Part shown: one piece after another, positions 20,100 to 26,001 of the stretch
How the letters are laid out: every line of letters begins with the position of its first letter
How positions within the stretch are numbered: position 1 is the first letter of the stretch
Program-made: the position numbers and the translations under genes
The notes under the pieces: generated by a model
The model's input: the letters and a program-made list of their open reading frames with translations, nothing else
The model's database searches: none
What the model was told of the DNA's origin: nothing
Origin: Clostridia bacterium
GTDB taxonomy: Bacteria > Bacillota > Clostridia > Oscillospirales > CAG-272
NCBI GenBank assembly: GCA_017938885.1
Contig: JAGBAS010000066.1
Span: forward strand, 1 to 56,957
Reading direction: 5' to 3'
Length of the DNA stretch: 56,957 bases

Positions 20100-20217
20100 A
20101 AGGATAGGATTTTCTTACTGGATAAAATGAGTTTTTTGACCCGCTAAATACTTTATACGTCAATGCTTTTTGCGTTTTGCAATTGCCTCACATCCCAATA
20201 TCCAAAGGAGGCTTTCC

Positions 20218-22296
20218 ATGCGTATCTGCACAGACACCGGCATGATCCTATCCGTGGACTTTTCTGCGGGACATATCACGTCCCTGCTCATAAACGGTAC
20301 GGAGCGTGTCATCGCTCACACCCCCTTGTTCCGTGTCCGTCTCCGTGACGGGGCGGGACAAGCCTACCACTGCACCGCCTATGAGGCAGGCACCCGCGCC
20401 GAGACCGAGTTTGGCGGTCTTTACTGCGATTTCCCCGCTCCCTTTGAAGAGCTGACCGTCACCGTGACCCTATCCGAGGCGGATGGCGGTGCCTGCTGGG
20501 GCATTTCGGCAACCCCCAACACCAAGGATGCCTTTGTCGAGTGGGTGGACTTCCCCCGTGTGACCCTTCCCGATCTCAAGCGGGAAAATCCCAAGACGGG
20601 CGGTGAGATACTGCTCCCCTACAACGAGGGCATTCTGGTCTCCAGCCATCTCGAGCGTGACTGCACCGACTTCCGCTTCTGGGAGCCTGAGTACCCCTCC
20701 ATCGGGTGCTACTCCCTGTTTCCCAACATGATCTCCTCCCAGATGATGGCCTACCTGTGGAAGGACGCGGGACTTTATATCGGTATTCACGATCCCGAGC
20801 GTGGCGTCAAATCATTGGATTTCTTCCGTGACGGTGACGGCACCACCATGCAGCCTCGGCTGTTCTGCGGCATAGATTTCGGCGAGACCTTTACCACCGA
20901 TTATCCCGTGGTCTGGAAGGCCACCGACGGGCGGTGGGAGTCTGCCGCCGAGATCTACCGCGCGTGGTTCGAGGGGCATCTGCCTCCCAAGGCGAAAAAG
21001 GTCGTGGAGGATGCAACCCTGCCCGCGTGGTACGAGGATTCCCCGCTGATCGTGACCTACCCTGTTCGTGGGTGGCATGATACCGACGTCATGGATCCCA
21101 ATCCCATGTTCCCCTACACCAATGCCCTGCCCGTGCTGGACAGCATCCGTAAGGCCACTGAGAGCCGTCTCATGGTGATCCTCATGCACTGGGAGGGGAC
21201 CGCTCCCTGGGCGCCCCCCTTCGTCTGGCCTCCCTACGGCGGAGCGGAGAGCTTCACCCAATTCAGAGATGCTCTCCACGGTCAAGGGGATATGCTGGGC
21301 GTGTACTGCTCGGGCTTCGGCTACACTACGAAGAGCCGTTTGGTGGATGACTACGCTCCCGTGGACTACTATGAGAAGAACGGCCTGGCGGCGGGCATGT
21401 GCTCGGGGCCCGACGGTAAGGTGGCCATCAGTAAAATTTGCACCGCCCAGCGCGAGGGCTACGACGTCTGCCCCGCCTCCCCCGTGGGGCGCAAGCTGCT
21501 GGACGAGGCCTACGCCCCCCTCTTTGAGGAGAGCGGGCTGGATTACGTGCAGATTTTGGATCAGAATCACGGCGGCGGGCAGTATTTCTGCTACGCCAAG
21601 GATCACGGCCATCCCCCCGCGCCCGGGGCGTGGATGACGGGGGCCATGCAGGATATGCTGAGCGGCTGGAACGAGAAGGCTCCCTCCATGCTCTTCGGCT
21701 GTGAGTCGGCAGCGGCGGAGCCCTTTATCGGGAACCTCCGCTTCAGCGACAACCGTTTCGAGCTGAACTACTTCACGGGCCGTCCCGTACCGCTCTACGC
21801 CTATCTCTACCACGAATACCTCCGCAACTTCATGGGTAACCAGGTCTGCGGAGACCTGCGGGGCGAGTACGAAACGCTGACCCACCGCATCGCCTACTCC
21901 TTCTCGGCCGGGGATTGTATGACCCTGGTCCTCTCTCCCGACGGGCGCATCCAGTCCTACTGGGGTCAACGTGACCTGTCCGACCTTCCCGACGAGGGGA
22001 AGGTGCTGACCCTCATTCGAAACCTCACCCGATTCTATCGTGAGGAAGGCAAGCCCTACCTCTACGCAGGACGCATGATCCCTGCCCTTCCCGTGGATTG
22101 CGGCGAACGTGCCTTCATCGGCAACTGGGGAACCCGTTCCTTCACCATGCCCTTCCTCCATTCCACGGCGTGGGAGGCGGGCGACGGACGGCGGGCGCAG
22201 ATCGTGGTCAATCCAGAGGATCGCGATATGAACTGCCGCGTAGGGGATGCGGAGGTGACCGTACCTGCTCTGGGGGCGTTGCTGGTTGAGCTTTGA
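20218..22296 (+). CDS. putative glycoside hydrolase-like protein (DUF6259-like)
   Basis: 692-aa ORF with AAGGAGG RBS; aromatic-rich; YVQILDQ and GCESAAAEP candidate catalytic motifs; family assignment from memory. Confidence 0.55.
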   Translation: MRICTDTGMILSVDFSAGHITSLLINGTERVIAHTPLFRVRLRDGAGQAYHCTAYEAGTRAETEFGGLYCDFPAPFEELTVTVTLSEADGGACWGISATPNTKDAFVEWVDFPRVTLPDLKRENPKTGGEILLPYNEGILVSSHLERDCTDFRFWEPEYPSIGCYSLFPNMISSQMMAYLWKDAGLYIGIHDPERGVKSLDFFRDGDGTTMQPRLFCGIDFGETFTTDYPVVWKATDGRWESAAEIYRAWFEGHLPPKAKKVVEDATLPAWYEDSPLIVTYPVRGWHDTDVMDPNPMFPYTNALPVLDSIRKATESRLMVILMHWEGTAPWAPPFVWPPYGGAESFTQFRDALHGQGDMLGVYCSGFGYTTKSRLVDDYAPVDYYEKNGLAAGMCSGPDGKVAISKICTAQREGYDVCPASPVGRKLLDEAYAPLFEESGLDYVQILDQNHGGGQYFCYAKDHGHPPAPGAWMTGAMQDMLSGWNEKAPSMLFGCESAAAEPFIGNLRFSDNRFELNYFTGRPVPLYAYLYHEYLRNFMGNQVCGDLRGEYETLTHRIAYSFSAGDCMTLVLSPDGRIQSYWGQRDLSDLPDEGKVLTLIRNLTRFYREEGKPYLYAGRMIPALPVDCGERAFIGNWGTRSFTMPFLHSTAWEAGDGRRAQIVVNPEDRDMNCRVGDAEVTVPALGALLVEL

Positions 22297-22317
22297 TCTG
22301 CATTGTTTTAACGAAAA

Positions 22318-22347
22318 AAAGAGAGGCTGTACCGATGGCCTCTCTTT
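22318..22347. terminator. bidirectional terminator (hairpin A)
   Basis: AAAGAGAGGC...GCCTCTCTTT between convergent genes. Confidence 0.75.
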
Positions 22348-22375
22348 CGTTTGGGTATTTCTCTCTGTACGCGCG

Positions 22376-22666
22376 TTATGTAATCTGCATGGAATCCCGT
22401 TCCCTTACCGTGTCCTCGGCCATGGCCGCGCCCAAGGCGTACCCTGCGCGAAAGGCGGCGATCTCAGAGGCCTCGGAGAGCTTCATCTCGGCGGTCTCCA
22501 TCTCGTGGAACAAACGGCGGGTCTCCTCGTCGGTGATGCGGCCCTCCAGCTCCTTTCGGAGCTTCGACCAAGCATCGACCAGCTTTTGATTCTCGGGATT
22601 ACGGAGTAAGAAGCTTTCAGAGGGACGAAGCTTACCGTACCAGAGGGCGTTCAATGCGGGTTCCAT
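22376..22666 (-). CDS. small helical protein (DUF6809-like)
   Basis: 96 aa; MEPALNALWYGKLRPSE N-terminus and AFRAGYALGAAM C-terminus; AAAAGGAG RBS. Confidence 0.7.
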   Translation of the reverse strand: MEPALNALWYGKLRPSESFLLRNPENQKLVDAWSKLRKELEGRITDEETRRLFHEMETAEMKLSEASEIAAFRAGYALGAAMAEDTVRERDSMQIT

Positions 22667-22702
22667 AGAGTATCTCCTTTTCATATGAAATAGGAGCGCA
22701 AT

Positions 22703-22733
22703 AAAAAAGTGCGCCCTGCAACGCAGAACGCAC
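22703..22733 (-). terminator. intrinsic terminator inside the 5' leader
   Basis: GUGCGUUCUGC-GUU-GCAGGGCGCAC followed by U6 on the minus strand. Confidence 0.8.
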
Positions 22734-22754
22734 CCAACAGTACTTCCACATTGC

Positions 22755-22895
22755 TGCGACACAATTTCATACATGCTTCCAAGGCAACGATTCGCATAGC
22801 GAAAAGAGTCTGTCCACACATACTAGTGAAAGTACATGCTGGCAAACTGACATTGCCTTATAAAAAAGCATATAGAGATATGAAATTGTGTCGCA
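22755..22895 (-). ncRNA. candidate structured leader/sRNA
   Basis: perfect 17-bp closing stem, further G-U-containing stems and two apical hairpins; begins at the predicted TSS. Confidence 0.65.
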
Positions 22896-22900
22896 AGGGT

Positions 22901-22929
22901 ATTGTACCACAAATACGGGCGGTTGTCAA
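22901..22929 (-). promoter_or_regulatory. sigma-A promoter driving the structured leader
   Basis: TTGACA-17 bp-TACAAT with extended TG. Confidence 0.8.
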
Positions 22930-22947
22930 GGGGTTTGGGGGGATTTT

Positions 22948-23263
22948 CAAATTTGGGTTTGTCGGGGCGTTCTTTTGCCTTCCCCAGCGGGGAAGGGGGA
23001 CCGCGAAGCGGTGGATGAGGAGAGCATTTGTAGACCAGCTTTCTGGGTGAGAGGCTAACCTTCATACCGCTTTTTTCGTTTCCGAAAATTAAAAAGATAA
23101 CCGCATCAACCGTTTTGTTACCTCCAACCGCATGGTTGTAGGAACGTAATTATACACCCGATAGGTGGACCTTCATCCGATCTCCTCATCCACCGCCTCG
23201 CGGTCCCCCTTCTCCGCTGGAGAAGGCAAGGGAGCGGTCAACTCACCTACAAACCCCAATTTG
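22948..23263. mobile_element. bipartite REP/MITE-like non-autonomous element
   Basis: 15-bp terminal IRs (14/15 match) CAAATTTGGGTTTGT / ACAAACCCCAATTTG; inverted double-hairpin arms. Confidence 0.75.
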
Positions 23264-23284
23264 CAGGTCTCATTCTATCAACCC

Positions 23285-23317
23285 AGAAAAGAGAGGCCAC
23301 AATGACCTCTCTTTTCT
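23285..23317. terminator. terminator hairpin B (direct repeat of 24262-24292)
   Basis: GAAAAGAGAGG-CCACAATGA-CCTCTCTTTTC. Confidence 0.75.
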
Positions 23318-23330
23318 GTATGCAATCGAT

Positions 23331-23555
23331 TTATTTGTGAGCATTCTCGATACGCTTCATAAGCTCCGAAGCAGGCATATCCAACGCCTCGGCAATTTTG
23401 AAAAAGGTCTCCAAGGTAGGCTTGCGAACCCCTCGCTCAATGGCACTCAAATGAGTACGCCCGATCCCCGCCAGACCACTGACCACCTCTTGGGAGAGTC
23501 CCTTTTCCTCGCGGACGGCTTGGATCACGGTCCCTACCTTGTTTGTCTCTGCCAT
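23331..23555 (-). CDS. XRE-family HTH transcriptional regulator
   Basis: REEKGLSQE...IGRTHLSAIERGVRKPTLETFFKIAEALD; AAGGAG RBS. Confidence 0.92.
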   Translation of the reverse strand: MAETNKVGTVIQAVREEKGLSQEVVSGLAGIGRTHLSAIERGVRKPTLETFFKIAEALDMPASELMKRIENAHK

Positions 23556-23613
23556 ATCGTACTCCTTTTTTCTTGATTATACTATACCCAAGAAAAAACG
23601 CTGAATACATATG

Positions 23614-23642
23614 TTGACAAACGAACACAAATGTGTTATAAT
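23614..23642 (+). promoter_or_regulatory. sigma-A promoter with overlapping palindromic operator
   Basis: TTGACA-17 bp-TATAAT; AACACA-AA-TGTGTT palindrome at 23624-23637. Confidence 0.75.
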
Positions 23643-23671
23643 GAATCAGAAAGAACCGTTTGGAGGCTTAT

Positions 23672-24241
23672 ATGTTTAAGATCATAATTGGGGTAGTATT
23701 TACTATTGCCATCGTTGTTGGTGCTTGCATATTGTGTGTAAGGCTTGAAAAGAAAGCATCGGAGGAGGCAGCACAAAAGAAGCAGATGGTAGAAAGAGAG
23801 CGATCAGCACGGGTAAAACGCATATTGAATAATCCCGCTTTTCAAAAAATGATGGATCACTGTGTGCGTATCTTTTTTGATGATTTGTTGTTTTGCGAAC
23901 AAAGAAGAGACAGTGTTTTTTGGGTTCGCATATATGTATACGGTAATAGAATTGAAGTACATCATTCATATAAAAATAGGGAAATTACATTCCGGCAATA
24001 TGATATGGAAAATATAAAAGAATTGGATATTCTATTTGCATTTATGGAGTCAGCAAAGCAATATTTGCCCCAAAAAATTATAACAGAATTAGAGAATCGA
24101 GGGTTCCATAACTGCACTTGTACTGTAACATGGGAAAGGAAAACAGAAAGAGACCTGGGCAACGATGATAAATGGCATGAGTATACTTTCAATAAGATCG
24201 ATGTTACATGCAAGTTTATTTATGAATTAAATCAATGGTAA
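23672..24241 (+). CDS. AT-rich hypothetical protein with N-terminal TM anchor
   Basis: GGAGG RBS, hydrophobic N-terminus, visibly AT-rich relative to the host genes. Confidence 0.75.
   Translation: MFKIIIGVVFTIAIVVGACILCVRLEKKASEEAAQKKQMVERERSARVKRILNNPAFQKMMDHCVRIFFDDLLFCEQRRDSVFWVRIYVYGNRIEVHHSYKNREITFRQYDMENIKELDILFAFMESAKQYLPQKIITELENRGFHNCTCTVTWERKTERDLGNDDKWHEYTFNKIDVTCKFIYELNQW

Positions 24242-24357: not shown

Positions 24358-24359
<2 letters not shown>
24324..24359. repeat. tandem GTATCTY heptamer array abutting the groEL stop
   Basis: GTATCTT GTATCTT GTATCTCC GTATCTC GTATCTT. Confidence 0.8.

Positions 24360-26001
<1,642 letters not shown>

What the first reader, a model, noticed from the sequence alone, without database searches (positions are those of the whole stretch)
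22376..22929. Candidate new RNA-regulated module: promoter, 140-nt structured RNA, terminator, sequestered SD, small DUF6809-like gene
Seen (minus strand): a near-consensus promoter whose predicted TSS (~22895) coincides with a perfect 17-bp stem (22879-22895 with 22755-22771). The stem continues through AUAUGCUUUU/GGAAGCAUGU and AAGGCAAUG/CGUUGCCUU into a junction with two hairpins (CAUGUACU/AGUAUGUG; UUCGC/GCGAA). Many imperfect pairs are G-U on this strand, as expected for a functional RNA. An 11-bp terminator with U6 follows (22703-22733), then a hairpin CUCCU-UUUCA/UGAAA-AGGAG (22674-22696) that buries the SD. The terminator 3' arm (GGGCGCA) could instead pair with UGCGCUC, which overlaps the anti-SD, giving mutually exclusive folds. 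Known: such multilayer silencing occurs in riboswitches/attenuators, type I toxin mRNAs and phage c4/CI antisense leaders; I do not recognise this sequence as any of them. Inference: an undescribed cis-regulatory RNA or sRNA-small protein system.
Basis: partly seen in the sequence, partly recalled or inferred. Interest (0 to 1): 0.85.

Follow-up and report, generated by a model that had tools for sequence, protein, structure and literature searches.

The report
Widespread leader RNA switch in gut Clostridia
The structured RNA in front of this small gene is real, and it is one copy of a large family of terminator/antiterminator leader RNAs, absent from the RNA family catalogue searched, that precede many surface-protein genes in an order of gut Clostridia.

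Summary
The fold z-score is -8.1.

The RNA is not specific to DUF6809. A covariance model (R1) built from relatives matches the window copy at 59 bits. It finds the family in 89 of 151 genomes of the same family and in 55 of 151 genomes across the order, with up to 13 copies per genome. Each copy starts 5 nt after an extended -10 box and ends in a terminator just before a gene. Those genes are mostly BspA-type LRR proteins, lipoproteins, zinc-ribbon proteins, XRE regulators or small proteins.

Across 95 copies, covariation supports two mutually exclusive folds:
- apical hairpin plus antiterminator;
- a long-range pairing of the hairpin with the segment after P1, plus the terminator.

The window copy keeps this logic with the partner strand swapped. 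It adds a translational layer: the terminator 3' arm, the anti-SD and the SD.

There was no Rfam match and no paper. MITE, inverton, leader-peptide, LoaP and obligatory-DUF6809 readings were tested and not supported. The effector is unknown.

Verdict: a real, apparently undescribed cis-regulatory attenuator family.

The parts
22901..22929 (-). Sigma-A type promoter: -35 TTGACA (22929-22924), 17-nt spacer, extended -10 TGgTACAAT (22909-22901). The inferred start is at or next to 22895/22894.
   Evidence: 11 of 12 positions, with TG. In 121 family copies the -10 box ends 5 nt before P1 in 100, a TG extension is present in 104 and the spacer is 17 nt in 95.
22879..22895 (-). P1 5' arm, UGCGACACAAUUUCAUA, at the 5' end of the transcript.
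   Evidence: pair I2. The 13 modelled P1 pairs are 96.6% paired in 95 copies, and 8 pairs show changes on both sides.
22755..22771 (-). P1 3' arm, UAUGAAAUUGUGUCGCA, followed by the conserved linker GCAAU (22754-22750).
22772..22878 (-). Interior of the 141-nt domain. It holds the extended stem (P1b/P2), the apical hairpin H (CAUGUACU 22838-22831 with AGUAUGUG 22824-22817), the conserved CUCUUUUCG stretch and the small hairpin UUCGC/GCGAA.
   Evidence: Minimum-energy fold, alignment with relatives and folds of the four subgroup members.
22826..22842 (-). H5 segment, CCAGCAUGUACUUUCAC: the 5' strand plus loop of hairpin H. It can pair with the H 3' strand or with segment D.
   Evidence: Duplex energies: H5:D -23.2 kcal/mol, H5:H3 -10.7. 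This is the best interior partner of D in 4 of 4 subgroup members, with compensating changes in L011.
22734..22749 (-). Segment D, GUGGAAGUACUGUUGG, between P1 and the terminator. It pairs either with H5 (anti-antiterminator) or with the terminator 5' arm (antiterminator).
   Evidence: antiterminator -12.6 to -13.4 kcal/mol in three members, -9.8 in L011. In the main type, the H3:D and D:T5' helices covary.
22703..22735 (-). Intrinsic terminator: 5' arm 22735-22723, loop 22722-22720, 3' arm 22719-22709, U6 tract 22708-22703.
   Evidence: The family terminator helix is 99.4% paired, and 7 of 9 pairs show changes on both sides.
22674..22700 (-). Translational layer, seen in this subgroup only. 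UGCGCUC (22700-22694) can pair with the terminator 3' arm. The anti-SD CUCCU (22696-22692) pairs with the SD AGGAG (22678-22674).
   Evidence: SD hairpin in 4 of 4 members; T3':anti-SD -12.6 to -13.7 kcal/mol. The four members are close relatives.
22376..22666 (-). DUF6809 gene, 96 aa. The model is a helical hairpin; function unknown.
   Evidence: Pfam. AlphaFold2 mean pLDDT 84.9, helices 24-43 and 47-94.
22312..22347 (-). Terminator-like hairpin after the gene (AAAGAGAGGC...GCCUCUCUUU plus a U run).
   Evidence: (pair I8).

Best explanation
Shown:
- The 22895-22703 RNA is one member of a large family of 5' leader RNAs. The family occurs across an order of Clostridia whose named carrier MAGs are labelled Oscillospiraceae, Acutalibacteraceae, Ruminococcaceae, Monoglobus and similar.
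- Each copy has an extended -10 promoter placed so that P1 should begin at about +1 (no transcription start was mapped), a long P1/P2 rod with an apical hairpin H, a short segment D, an intrinsic terminator T and then a gene.
- Covariation supports four helices that cannot all form at once.

Inferred: the family works as a two-state transcription attenuator built from a chain of alternative helices.
- ON state: H is closed. D pairs with the terminator 5' arm as an antiterminator, and transcription reads through.
- OFF state: D invades H and forms a long-range pairing with one H strand, acting as an anti-antiterminator. The terminator forms and a roughly 190-nt RNA is released.

The window copy (shown by energy calculation, inferred as function):
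- D pairs with the H 5' strand plus loop. In most family members D pairs with the H 3' strand plus GCUC.
- Two more links are added. When the antiterminator holds the terminator 5' arm, the freed 3' arm can pair with the anti-SD and expose the SD. Otherwise the anti-SD:SD hairpin hides the SD. Termination and translation would therefore switch together.

The input is not known. I infer that a global trans-acting signal, a small ligand or a protein, stabilises or opens the apical hairpin with its conserved loop and bulge. The reasons are that the copies share no neighbouring regulator and that the helix sequences differ between copies in one genome.

The genes under this leader are mainly surface and secreted proteins. 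DUF6809 is one of many cargo genes.
For: Family and reach:
- The window copy scores 59.3 bits, E 2e-11, over the whole model R1.
- Two more, divergent copies lie in the same genome.
- R1 hits 89 of 151 genomes and 62 of 97 genera in the family, with up to 13 copies per genome.
- R1 hits 55 of 151 genomes and 19 of 30 families in the order.

Fixed architecture:
- In 121 copies the -10 box ends 5 nt before P1 in 100, and TG is present in 104.
- 81 of 91 copies have an ORF with an SD just after the terminator, by my ORF rule.

Two folds, counted on 95 model-aligned copies. The D columns were not fitted to any structure.
- OFF structure: 93.9% of cells paired against 82.6% in shuffles, 0 of 500 shuffles as high; slid controls 34-57%.
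- H3:D helix: 14 pairs, 92.1% paired, 9 pairs changed on both sides.
- ON structure: 90.3% paired.
- H: 11 pairs, 88.6% paired, 10 changed on both sides.
- Antiterminator: 11 pairs, 88.3% paired, 6 changed on both sides.

Alignment-free test, own partner against partners taken from other copies:
- H5:H3 -12.2 vs -7.4 kcal/mol, own partner better in 91 of 95.
- H3:D -16.5 vs -11.0, 93 of 95.
- D:T5' -13.1 vs -10.7, 82 of 95.
- T -17.9 vs -14.2, 91 of 95.
- Negative controls: H5:D 49 of 95, H5:T5' 57 of 95.

Window subgroup: H5:D -22 to -23.8, antiterminator -9.8 to -13.4, T -20.4, T3':anti-SD -12.6 to -13.7 kcal/mol in 4 of 4 members.

Strand: G-U pairs are common, for example P1 pair 8 is U-G in 24 of 95 copies.

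Cargo: of 82 downstream proteins, 13 are BspA LRR_5, 5 DUF6809, 4 XRE HTH and 3 zinc ribbon. SLH, WG repeat, ChW and an M4 peptidase also occur. Lipoprotein-like N-termini are frequent.

Weak hint of expression: short metatranscriptome contigs from two studies lie on 22596-22914 only, and two stop at 22700/22701.
Against: - No experiment: no mapped 5' or 3' ends, no termination assay, no effector.
- Contigs from RNA libraries can hold DNA and cannot show ends. One contig (X1) runs about 20 nt upstream of the inferred start.
- Support for the antiterminator is weaker than for the other helices. Part of it could follow from the chain of constraints on D and T.
- The long-range H:D pairing lies across a 30-36 bp rod. 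Whether it forms while P1/P2 stand was not modelled.
- By duplex energies the OFF pair of helices is more stable, about -34 against -25 kcal/mol on family means. By kinetics the local antiterminator could win. The default state and the sign of regulation are therefore open.
- Most of the 95 aligned copies were collected with a 15-mer from the P1 3' arm, so the sequence conservation of P1 is inflated. Hits found by the model alone show P1 variants.
- 10 of 91 copies have no ORF by my rule.
- The translational layer rests on four closely related sequences.
Confidence: 0.72

Rival explanations
1. It is a stand-alone small RNA of about 190 nt that acts in trans. The downstream genes are expressed only by leak through its terminator, and the alternative pairings serve folding or turnover, not control.
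For: There is a strong promoter, a strong terminator and a very stable fold. 10 of 91 copies have no ORF close by under my rule. Tandem arrays of copies exist.
Against: 81 of 91 copies have an SD and a start codon within tens of nt of the U tract, with no room for a promoter of their own. The antiterminator D:T5' covaries. Helix sequences differ between copies in one genome, which fits cis action better than a shared trans target.
Confidence: 0.1
2. It is a constitutive 5' UTR element, for example a 5' stem that protects the mRNA or an RNase III site, followed by a leaky terminator. No signal is sensed.
For: P1 should start at about the inferred +1 and is a long duplex of 13-17 bp. No effector was found.
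Against: A stabiliser needs neither a terminator nor two mutually exclusive helices that covary. In this copy the chain also extends to the SD.
Confidence: 0.08
3. It is a MITE-like mobile element, or a mobile promoter cassette, whose terminal inverted repeats are the P1 arms.
For: It is multi-copy, up to 13 per genome. The ends are inverted repeats, the length is 135-216 nt, and it sits in unrelated gene contexts.
Against: - BLAST finds only one copy in the window's genome.
- Copies within one genome differ widely.
- Conservation and covariation reach outside the repeat, into the promoter, D and T.
- Position and orientation relative to the downstream gene are fixed.
- No recurrent transposase or recombinase lies nearby.
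Confidence: 0.04
4. It is a DNA inverton in a 5' UTR, flipped between the 17-bp repeats, like the cwpV and flgB switches of Clostridioides difficile (recalled from memory, not from a call).
For: A 107-bp segment between perfect repeats lies between a promoter and a gene.
Against: - All 95 aligned copies have the same orientation, and D is complementary to the interior only in that orientation.
- G-U pairs are strand-specific.
- Contigs from 4 runs are collinear, and no strand-change joint was listed in 22755-22895.
- No recurrent recombinase lies nearby.
Confidence: 0.02

Closest known systems
Multi-hairpin attenuators with an anti-antiterminator, such as the PyrR-controlled pyr leaders and the trp leader (mechanisms recalled from memory).
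   Same: There is a chain of overlapping helices in which an upstream helix decides whether an antiterminator or an intrinsic terminator forms. The leader lies directly before the regulated gene.
   Different: - No PyrR-binding-site or other Rfam match.
- No conserved leader ORF: the AUG inside H3 is ACG in about 20 of 95 copies (column 206).
- The anti-antiterminator is a long-range pairing into the tip of a closed rod.
- The chain has four links in the family and six in the window copy.
- The cargo genes are surface proteins, not a biosynthetic pathway.
Riboswitches that act on a terminator, such as S-box/SAM-I with anti-antiterminator, antiterminator and terminator (recalled from memory).
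   Same: A structured sensor domain closed by P1, followed by an expression platform with competing antiterminator and terminator. Conserved unpaired nucleotides lie in loops and a bulge.
   Different: No ligand is known. P2 varies in length and in extra branches. The competing strand is not the P1 3' arm but a strand of the apical hairpin. No Rfam family matches.
c-di-GMP-I riboswitches (RF01051), which control surface proteins in Clostridia (their role is recalled from memory).
   Same: Many copies per genome in front of surface, adhesion and secreted-protein genes.
   Different: The structures are unrelated. RF01051 is not found in the window's genome. It occurs in 39 of 151 genomes of the family, 20 of which also carry this RNA by my hand tally, so the two are neither exclusive nor linked.
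T-box leaders
   Same: A long leader with a terminator/antiterminator choice, in Firmicutes.
   Different: No Rfam T-box match. The downstream genes are not aminoacyl-tRNA synthetase or amino-acid genes.
Correia-type MITEs that carry promoters and fold into hairpins in mRNAs (recalled from memory).
   Same: Short multi-copy units with inverted-repeat ends, located upstream of genes.
   Different: The conserved unit extends beyond the repeats. Copies are diverged and show compensating changes. Orientation is fixed.

Membership tests
Any Rfam 15 family | A covariance-model match at or near the family's gathering score. | tested here: not met
   (window 22000-23700, E up to 10): on the leader only sau-6072, at 21.4 bits against a gathering score of 50, lying on the terminator. 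(20 relatives' loci, E up to 0.1): 6 matches, none on the element.
Intrinsic-terminator attenuator (the general kind) | A G+C-rich hairpin followed by a U tract, between the promoter and the gene. | tested here: met
   The family helix is 99.4% paired, with 7 of 9 pairs changed on both sides.
Intrinsic-terminator attenuator (the general kind) | An alternative helix that sequesters a terminator arm (an antiterminator). | tested here: met
   D:T5' has 11 pairs, 88.3% paired, 6 changed on both sides. The cognate partner is better in 82 of 95 copies. In the window copy it is -12.6 to -13.4 kcal/mol.
Intrinsic-terminator attenuator (the general kind) | Termination that responds to a signal. | not testable with these tools
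   Needs termination assays or Term-seq under different conditions.
Riboswitch | Direct, specific binding of a small ligand by the RNA. | not testable with these tools
   No ligand candidate. The cargo genes point to no metabolite.
T-box leader | Stem I with a specifier loop, the T-box sequence in the antiterminator bulge, and aminoacyl-tRNA synthetase or amino-acid genes downstream. | tested here: not met
   No Rfam T-box match. The downstream genes are unrelated.
c-di-GMP-I riboswitch (RF01051) | A match to the RF01051 model. | tested here: not met
   No match in the window region and none in genome G000.
LoaP-dependent leader | A LoaP (specialised NusG paralogue) gene in the genome. | tested here: not met
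   NF033641 passes its cut-off in 1 of 151 genomes (G187), which has no R1 match. Nearly all the others show a single NusG-like match below the cut-off.
MITE | A unit bounded by terminal inverted repeats, with near-identical copies in random contexts and orientations. | tested here: not met
   One BLAST copy in the window's genome. Conservation reaches beyond the repeats. Orientation is fixed. Target-site duplications were not examined.
DNA inverton | Both orientations of the repeat-flanked segment occur. | tested here: not met
   95 of 95 aligned copies share one orientation. Contigs from 4 runs are collinear. Raw reads of a single strain were not available.
Type I toxin-antitoxin | A small hydrophobic membrane peptide and an antisense RNA. 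| tested here: not met
   The 96-aa product is charged and is modelled as a soluble helical hairpin. One search lists no plus-strand promoter-like site within 22376-22929. No transmembrane predictor was run.
PF20648 DUF6809 (the gene) | A Pfam match above the gathering score. | tested here: met
   52.3 bits against 27, E 1.1e-13, residues 1-83.

The most novel reading that the evidence does not exclude
This would be a new class of riboswitch or factor-dependent riboregulator. It would sense one global signal and so coordinate much of the variable cell-surface and secreted proteome (BspA-type LRR proteins, lipoproteins, small Cys-rich peptides) across an order of gut Clostridia. The mechanism would be an unusually long strand-exchange chain in which a long-range pairing into the tip of a closed rod serves as the anti-antiterminator. 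In some lineages the chain extends to the SD, so that termination and translation flip together.
Probability: 0.3. Interest if true: 0.9.

Novelty: new variant of a known kind. Interest (0 to 1): 0.78.

Why it matters
The carriers are abundant, mostly uncultured gut Clostridia whose gene regulation is hardly known. One leader RNA present in more than half of the sampled genomes of a family, at up to 13 copies per genome, defines a large regulon of surface and secreted proteins. It also points to a signal that has not yet been identified.

The finding gives a concrete, testable model of an orphan riboregulator, with helices that can be mutated and compensated. It also gives a covariance model that can annotate hundreds of leaders. 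If a ligand or protein is found, it would show how these bacteria switch their surface.

Tried and rejected
Rfam: no family matched.

Papers:
- 'DUF6809': 0 papers.
- Four strings from the P1 arms: 32 papers; all 20 listed look unrelated by title and abstract, mostly animal, plant or fungal studies (search listing only).
- Two keyword searches on Oscillospirales, riboswitch, Ruminococcaceae and attenuator returned nothing on this RNA (listings only).
- Supplementary files were not consulted, and subscription journals are not in the library, so 'not in print' holds only for these searches.

MITE: rejected.

Inverton: rejected.

Leader peptide: considered because AUG and SD-like strings occur in H3 and D. 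Rejected because the H3 AUG is not conserved and the spacing to the SD-like strings is 0-2 nt (read).

LoaP or another NusG paralogue as the factor: not supported.

c-di-GMP link: RF01051 is neither exclusive with nor tied to the RNA (hand tally).

DUF6809 as an obligatory partner. My hand tally over 151 genomes:
- RNA and DUF6809 both present: 54
- RNA only: 35
- DUF6809 only: 18
- neither: 44
This is a positive but non-obligatory association among related genomes. G089 has 13 RNA copies and no DUF6809 match.

Conserved neighbouring regulator: all-against-all clustering of 639 ORFs around 127 copies gave only the BspA LRR cluster as a recurrent first downstream gene, in 9 copies.

DUF6809 function:
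- Only 'hypothetical' names among 26 close homologues.
- 29 representatives at E up to 0.001.
- No significant PDB sequence match; best E 0.27.
- No PHROG match.
- Foldseek against PDB: nothing at E up to 0.001.
- VIA-align wide: best Z 6.5, generic long helices only.

RNA runs:
- Parts of the window without cover (the gene body 22376-22595, and upstream of 22914 apart from the repeat) are not evidence.
- Depth was not used to rank anything.

RNAalifold on the raw MAFFT alignment found only P1 and T, because the variable region was misaligned. I therefore defined the helices by hand and re-aligned with the model.

I added it and sent the same report again.
Full report
OBSERVATION

- The promoter is TTGACA, 17 nt, TACAAT, with a TG extension, at 22929-22901; it matches 11 of 12 consensus positions.
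- Five nt after the -10 box, a perfect 17-bp stem begins: 22895-22879 with 22771-22755.
- The minimum-energy fold of 22900-22650 holds the extended stem, two apical hairpins, the terminator and the SD hairpin. Its energy is -103.1 kcal/mol against -64.4 +/- 4.8 for shuffles, z = -8.12, and 0 of 200 shuffles fold as well.
- The terminator has 13 pairs and a U6 tract.
- The gene 22666-22376 matches DUF6809 at E 1.1e-13.
- Rfam gives nothing near a gathering score.

THE ELEMENT IS NOT PRIVATE TO THIS GENE

BLAST finds only this copy in the window's own genome, so it is not a recent repeat.

Relatives in the same genus carry the same layout before DUF6809-like genes. Both P1 arms are conserved and the interior varies.

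A 15-mer from the P1 3' arm plus the linker GCAAU, allowing up to 1 mismatch, occurs in 108 of 401 genomes and 51 of 97 genera of the same family. This is far above the reversed-pattern control.

- 66 of these loci hold 67 full elements.
- 54 loci are chance hits in unrelated phyla.
- The named carriers are MAGs labelled Oscillospiraceae, Acutalibacteraceae, Ruminococcaceae, Ruminococcus, Ruminiclostridium, Monoglobus, Oscillibacter, Ructibacterium, 'Eubacteriales' and 'Clostridia'. One is labelled Lachnospiraceae and one Collinsella.

Twenty of the relatives' loci gave no Rfam match on the element.

MODEL AND REACH

From 50 copies I built covariance model R1, with 161 positions and 40 pairs.
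- The window copy scores 59.3 bits over the full model; the reverse strand scores 22.8 bits.
- The window's genome has two further, divergent copies. One is at C33:115-277, next to another DUF6809-like gene that lies upstream of it. The other is at C18:5204-5341, before a membrane protein.
- R1 finds the family in 89 of 151 genomes and 62 of 97 genera of the family, with up to 13 copies in one 1.3-Mb genome.
- R1 finds it in 55 of 151 genomes and 19 of 30 families of the order.

ANATOMY

In 121 copies the -10 box ends 5 nt before P1 in 100, a TG extension is present in 104, and the spacer is 17 nt in 95. P1 should therefore begin at about +1.

The main-type consensus runs, from 5' to 3':
- P1 (UGCGACACAA...);
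- an AAUA/GAAA internal loop;
- a variable P2;
- the apical hairpin H (GUGUAUUUUUA, loop, UAAAAAUGCAU);
- a conserved bulge (GCUCUnUUUUCGnAU);
- the P2 and P1 3' strands;
- the linker GCAAU;
- segment D (CGGAGCUAUGCAUUUUUCGG);
- terminator T (GUGCGyrGC-UUCG-GCyGCGCAC) and a U tract;
- the SD and start codon after a median of about 20 nt.

TWO FOLDS

D is complementary to the H 3' strand plus GCUC. D is also complementary to the terminator 5' arm plus its loop. This gives a chain of alternative helices: H5:H3, H3:D, D:T5', T5':T3'.

I tested the chain on 95 copies aligned to R1. The D columns in that alignment were placed by sequence only, not fitted to any structure.

OFF structure, that is P1, P3, H3:D and T:
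- 93.9% of cells are paired against 82.6% in shuffles, and 0 of 500 shuffles reach that value.
- Slid controls give 34-57%.
- H3:D is 92.1% paired, with 9 of 14 pairs changed on both sides.

ON structure, that is P1, P3, H and D:T5':
- 90.3% of cells are paired.
- H is 88.6% paired, with 10 of 11 pairs changed on both sides.
- The antiterminator is 88.3% paired, with 6 of 11 pairs changed on both sides.

An alignment-free control compared each copy's own partner with partners taken from other copies.
- Own partners are better in 91 of 95 copies for H, 93 of 95 for H3:D, 82 of 95 for D:T5' and 91 of 95 for T.
- Two non-pairs used as negative controls give 49 and 57 of 95.

Caveats:
- The sequences are related.
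- Most were collected with the P1 15-mer, so the sequence conservation of P1 is inflated.
- Copies found by the model alone show P1 variants with compensating changes, such as GCCAAACAA/UUGUUUGGC.

THE WINDOW COPY

In the window and its three closest relatives (L009-L011), the best interior partner of D is the 5' strand plus loop of H, at -22 to -23.8 kcal/mol. L011 changes both sides together.

D also forms an antiterminator with the terminator 5' arm, at -9.8 to -13.4 kcal/mol. The terminator is -20.4 kcal/mol.

After the terminator, UGCGCUC can pair with the terminator 3' arm at -12.6 to -13.7 kcal/mol, or its CUCCU can pair with the SD.

The chain in this copy is therefore H3:H5, H5:D, D:T5', T5':T3', T3':anti-SD and anti-SD:SD. 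One register gives termination and a hidden SD. The other gives read-through and a free SD.

The first three links and the family context are new here. The translational layer is seen only in this subgroup of four close relatives.

WHAT IT CONTROLS

Pfam on 82 downstream proteins gives:
- 13 BspA-type LRR proteins;
- 5 DUF6809;
- 4 XRE HTH regulators;
- 3 zinc-ribbon proteins;
- 2 each with SLH and WG repeats, and single ChW and M4 peptidase proteins.

Many products start with lipoprotein-like signal peptides. In two genomes examined copy by copy, 4 of 15 downstream products are Cys-rich peptides of 55-72 aa, and most of the rest are lipoproteins.

Clustering of 639 neighbouring ORFs around 127 copies found no recurrent regulator.

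WHAT TRIGGERS IT

This is unknown.
- LoaP or other NusG paralogues are not there: 1 of 151 genomes passes the cut-off, and that genome lacks the RNA.
- c-di-GMP-I riboswitches occur in 39 of 151 genomes, independent of this RNA.
- DUF6809 is associated but not required. My hand tally gives 54 genomes with both, 35 with the RNA only, 18 with DUF6809 only and 44 with neither.

Helix sequences differ between copies in one genome, while the loop, the bulge and the A5/U5 runs are kept. I therefore infer a global factor, a ligand or a protein, that reads the shape of the apical region. A base-pairing RNA is less likely.

The default state is open.
- By duplex energy the OFF pair of helices is the more stable.
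- By kinetics the local antiterminator may form first.

EXPRESSION

Metatranscriptome contigs from two studies, 151-312 nt long and 97-98% identical, lie only on 22596-22914. Two of them stop at 22700/22701, at the end of the U tract. They are collinear with the window. This is a weak hint only, because contigs cannot show ends and RNA libraries can hold DNA.

THE PROTEIN

DUF6809 is modelled as a helical hairpin with mean pLDDT 84.9. It has no informative sequence or fold match. Its function stays unknown. In this reading it is a cargo gene.

RIVALS

A trans-acting sRNA, a constitutive 5' stabiliser, a MITE and an inverton were considered. The last two fail direct tests.

VERDICT

What is there is a member of a large leader-RNA family with a terminator/antiterminator switch. 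I found no match for it in Rfam and no paper describing it in the searches named above. Its effector is unknown.

Noticed in passing
window 22968-23023 and 23181-23236: The 56-nt inverted arms between the XRE gene and the leader promoter are copies of a dispersed repeat of about 50-58 nt. There are 109 matches in the window's own genome, many at contig ends and many as inverted pairs 130-210 nt apart. Depth in the metatranscriptome contigs is very high, up to several thousand. It looks REP- or MITE-like and is not part of the leader.
   Followed up: partly
L203, L205, L206 (G022), L213 (G089), L187: A recurrent Cys-rich small protein of 55-72 aa (motif CLGNGEQGFECCCDECDYF) is encoded directly after leader copies. 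It has no PHROG match. No Pfam scan of it was run.
   Followed up: partly
L110 4748-5371; G062:C88:12437-13024; G200:C125:5792-6496; G489:C186:278-832: Three leader copies stand in tandem within about 600-700 nt. Whether each has its own promoter or small ORF was not examined.
   Followed up: no
G000:C33:460-711, C33:1928-2182, C103:13114-13362, C104:31308-31559: The window's genome has five DUF6809 paralogues in all. Only the window copy directly follows a leader. The C33:460-711 gene lies just upstream of a divergent leader copy.
   Followed up: partly
window 23331-23555 (-) and 23284-23318: A 74-aa XRE-type HTH gene lies on the same strand upstream of the leader. It is followed by a 16-bp palindrome that looks like a terminator (pair I3).
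   Followed up: no
window 23614-23642 (+) and 23660-24241 (+): A perfect consensus promoter, 12 of 12 positions with TG, precedes a 193-aa ORF that has no Pfam family and a hydrophobic N-terminus.
   Followed up: no
window 24358-25995 (-) and 20170-22296 (+): The locus lies between a 545-aa ORF that reads like the chaperonin GroEL and a 708-aa protein with a DUF6259 domain, so it appears to be chromosomal, not on a mobile element. The GroEL name comes from reading the translation, not from a family scan.
   Followed up: no
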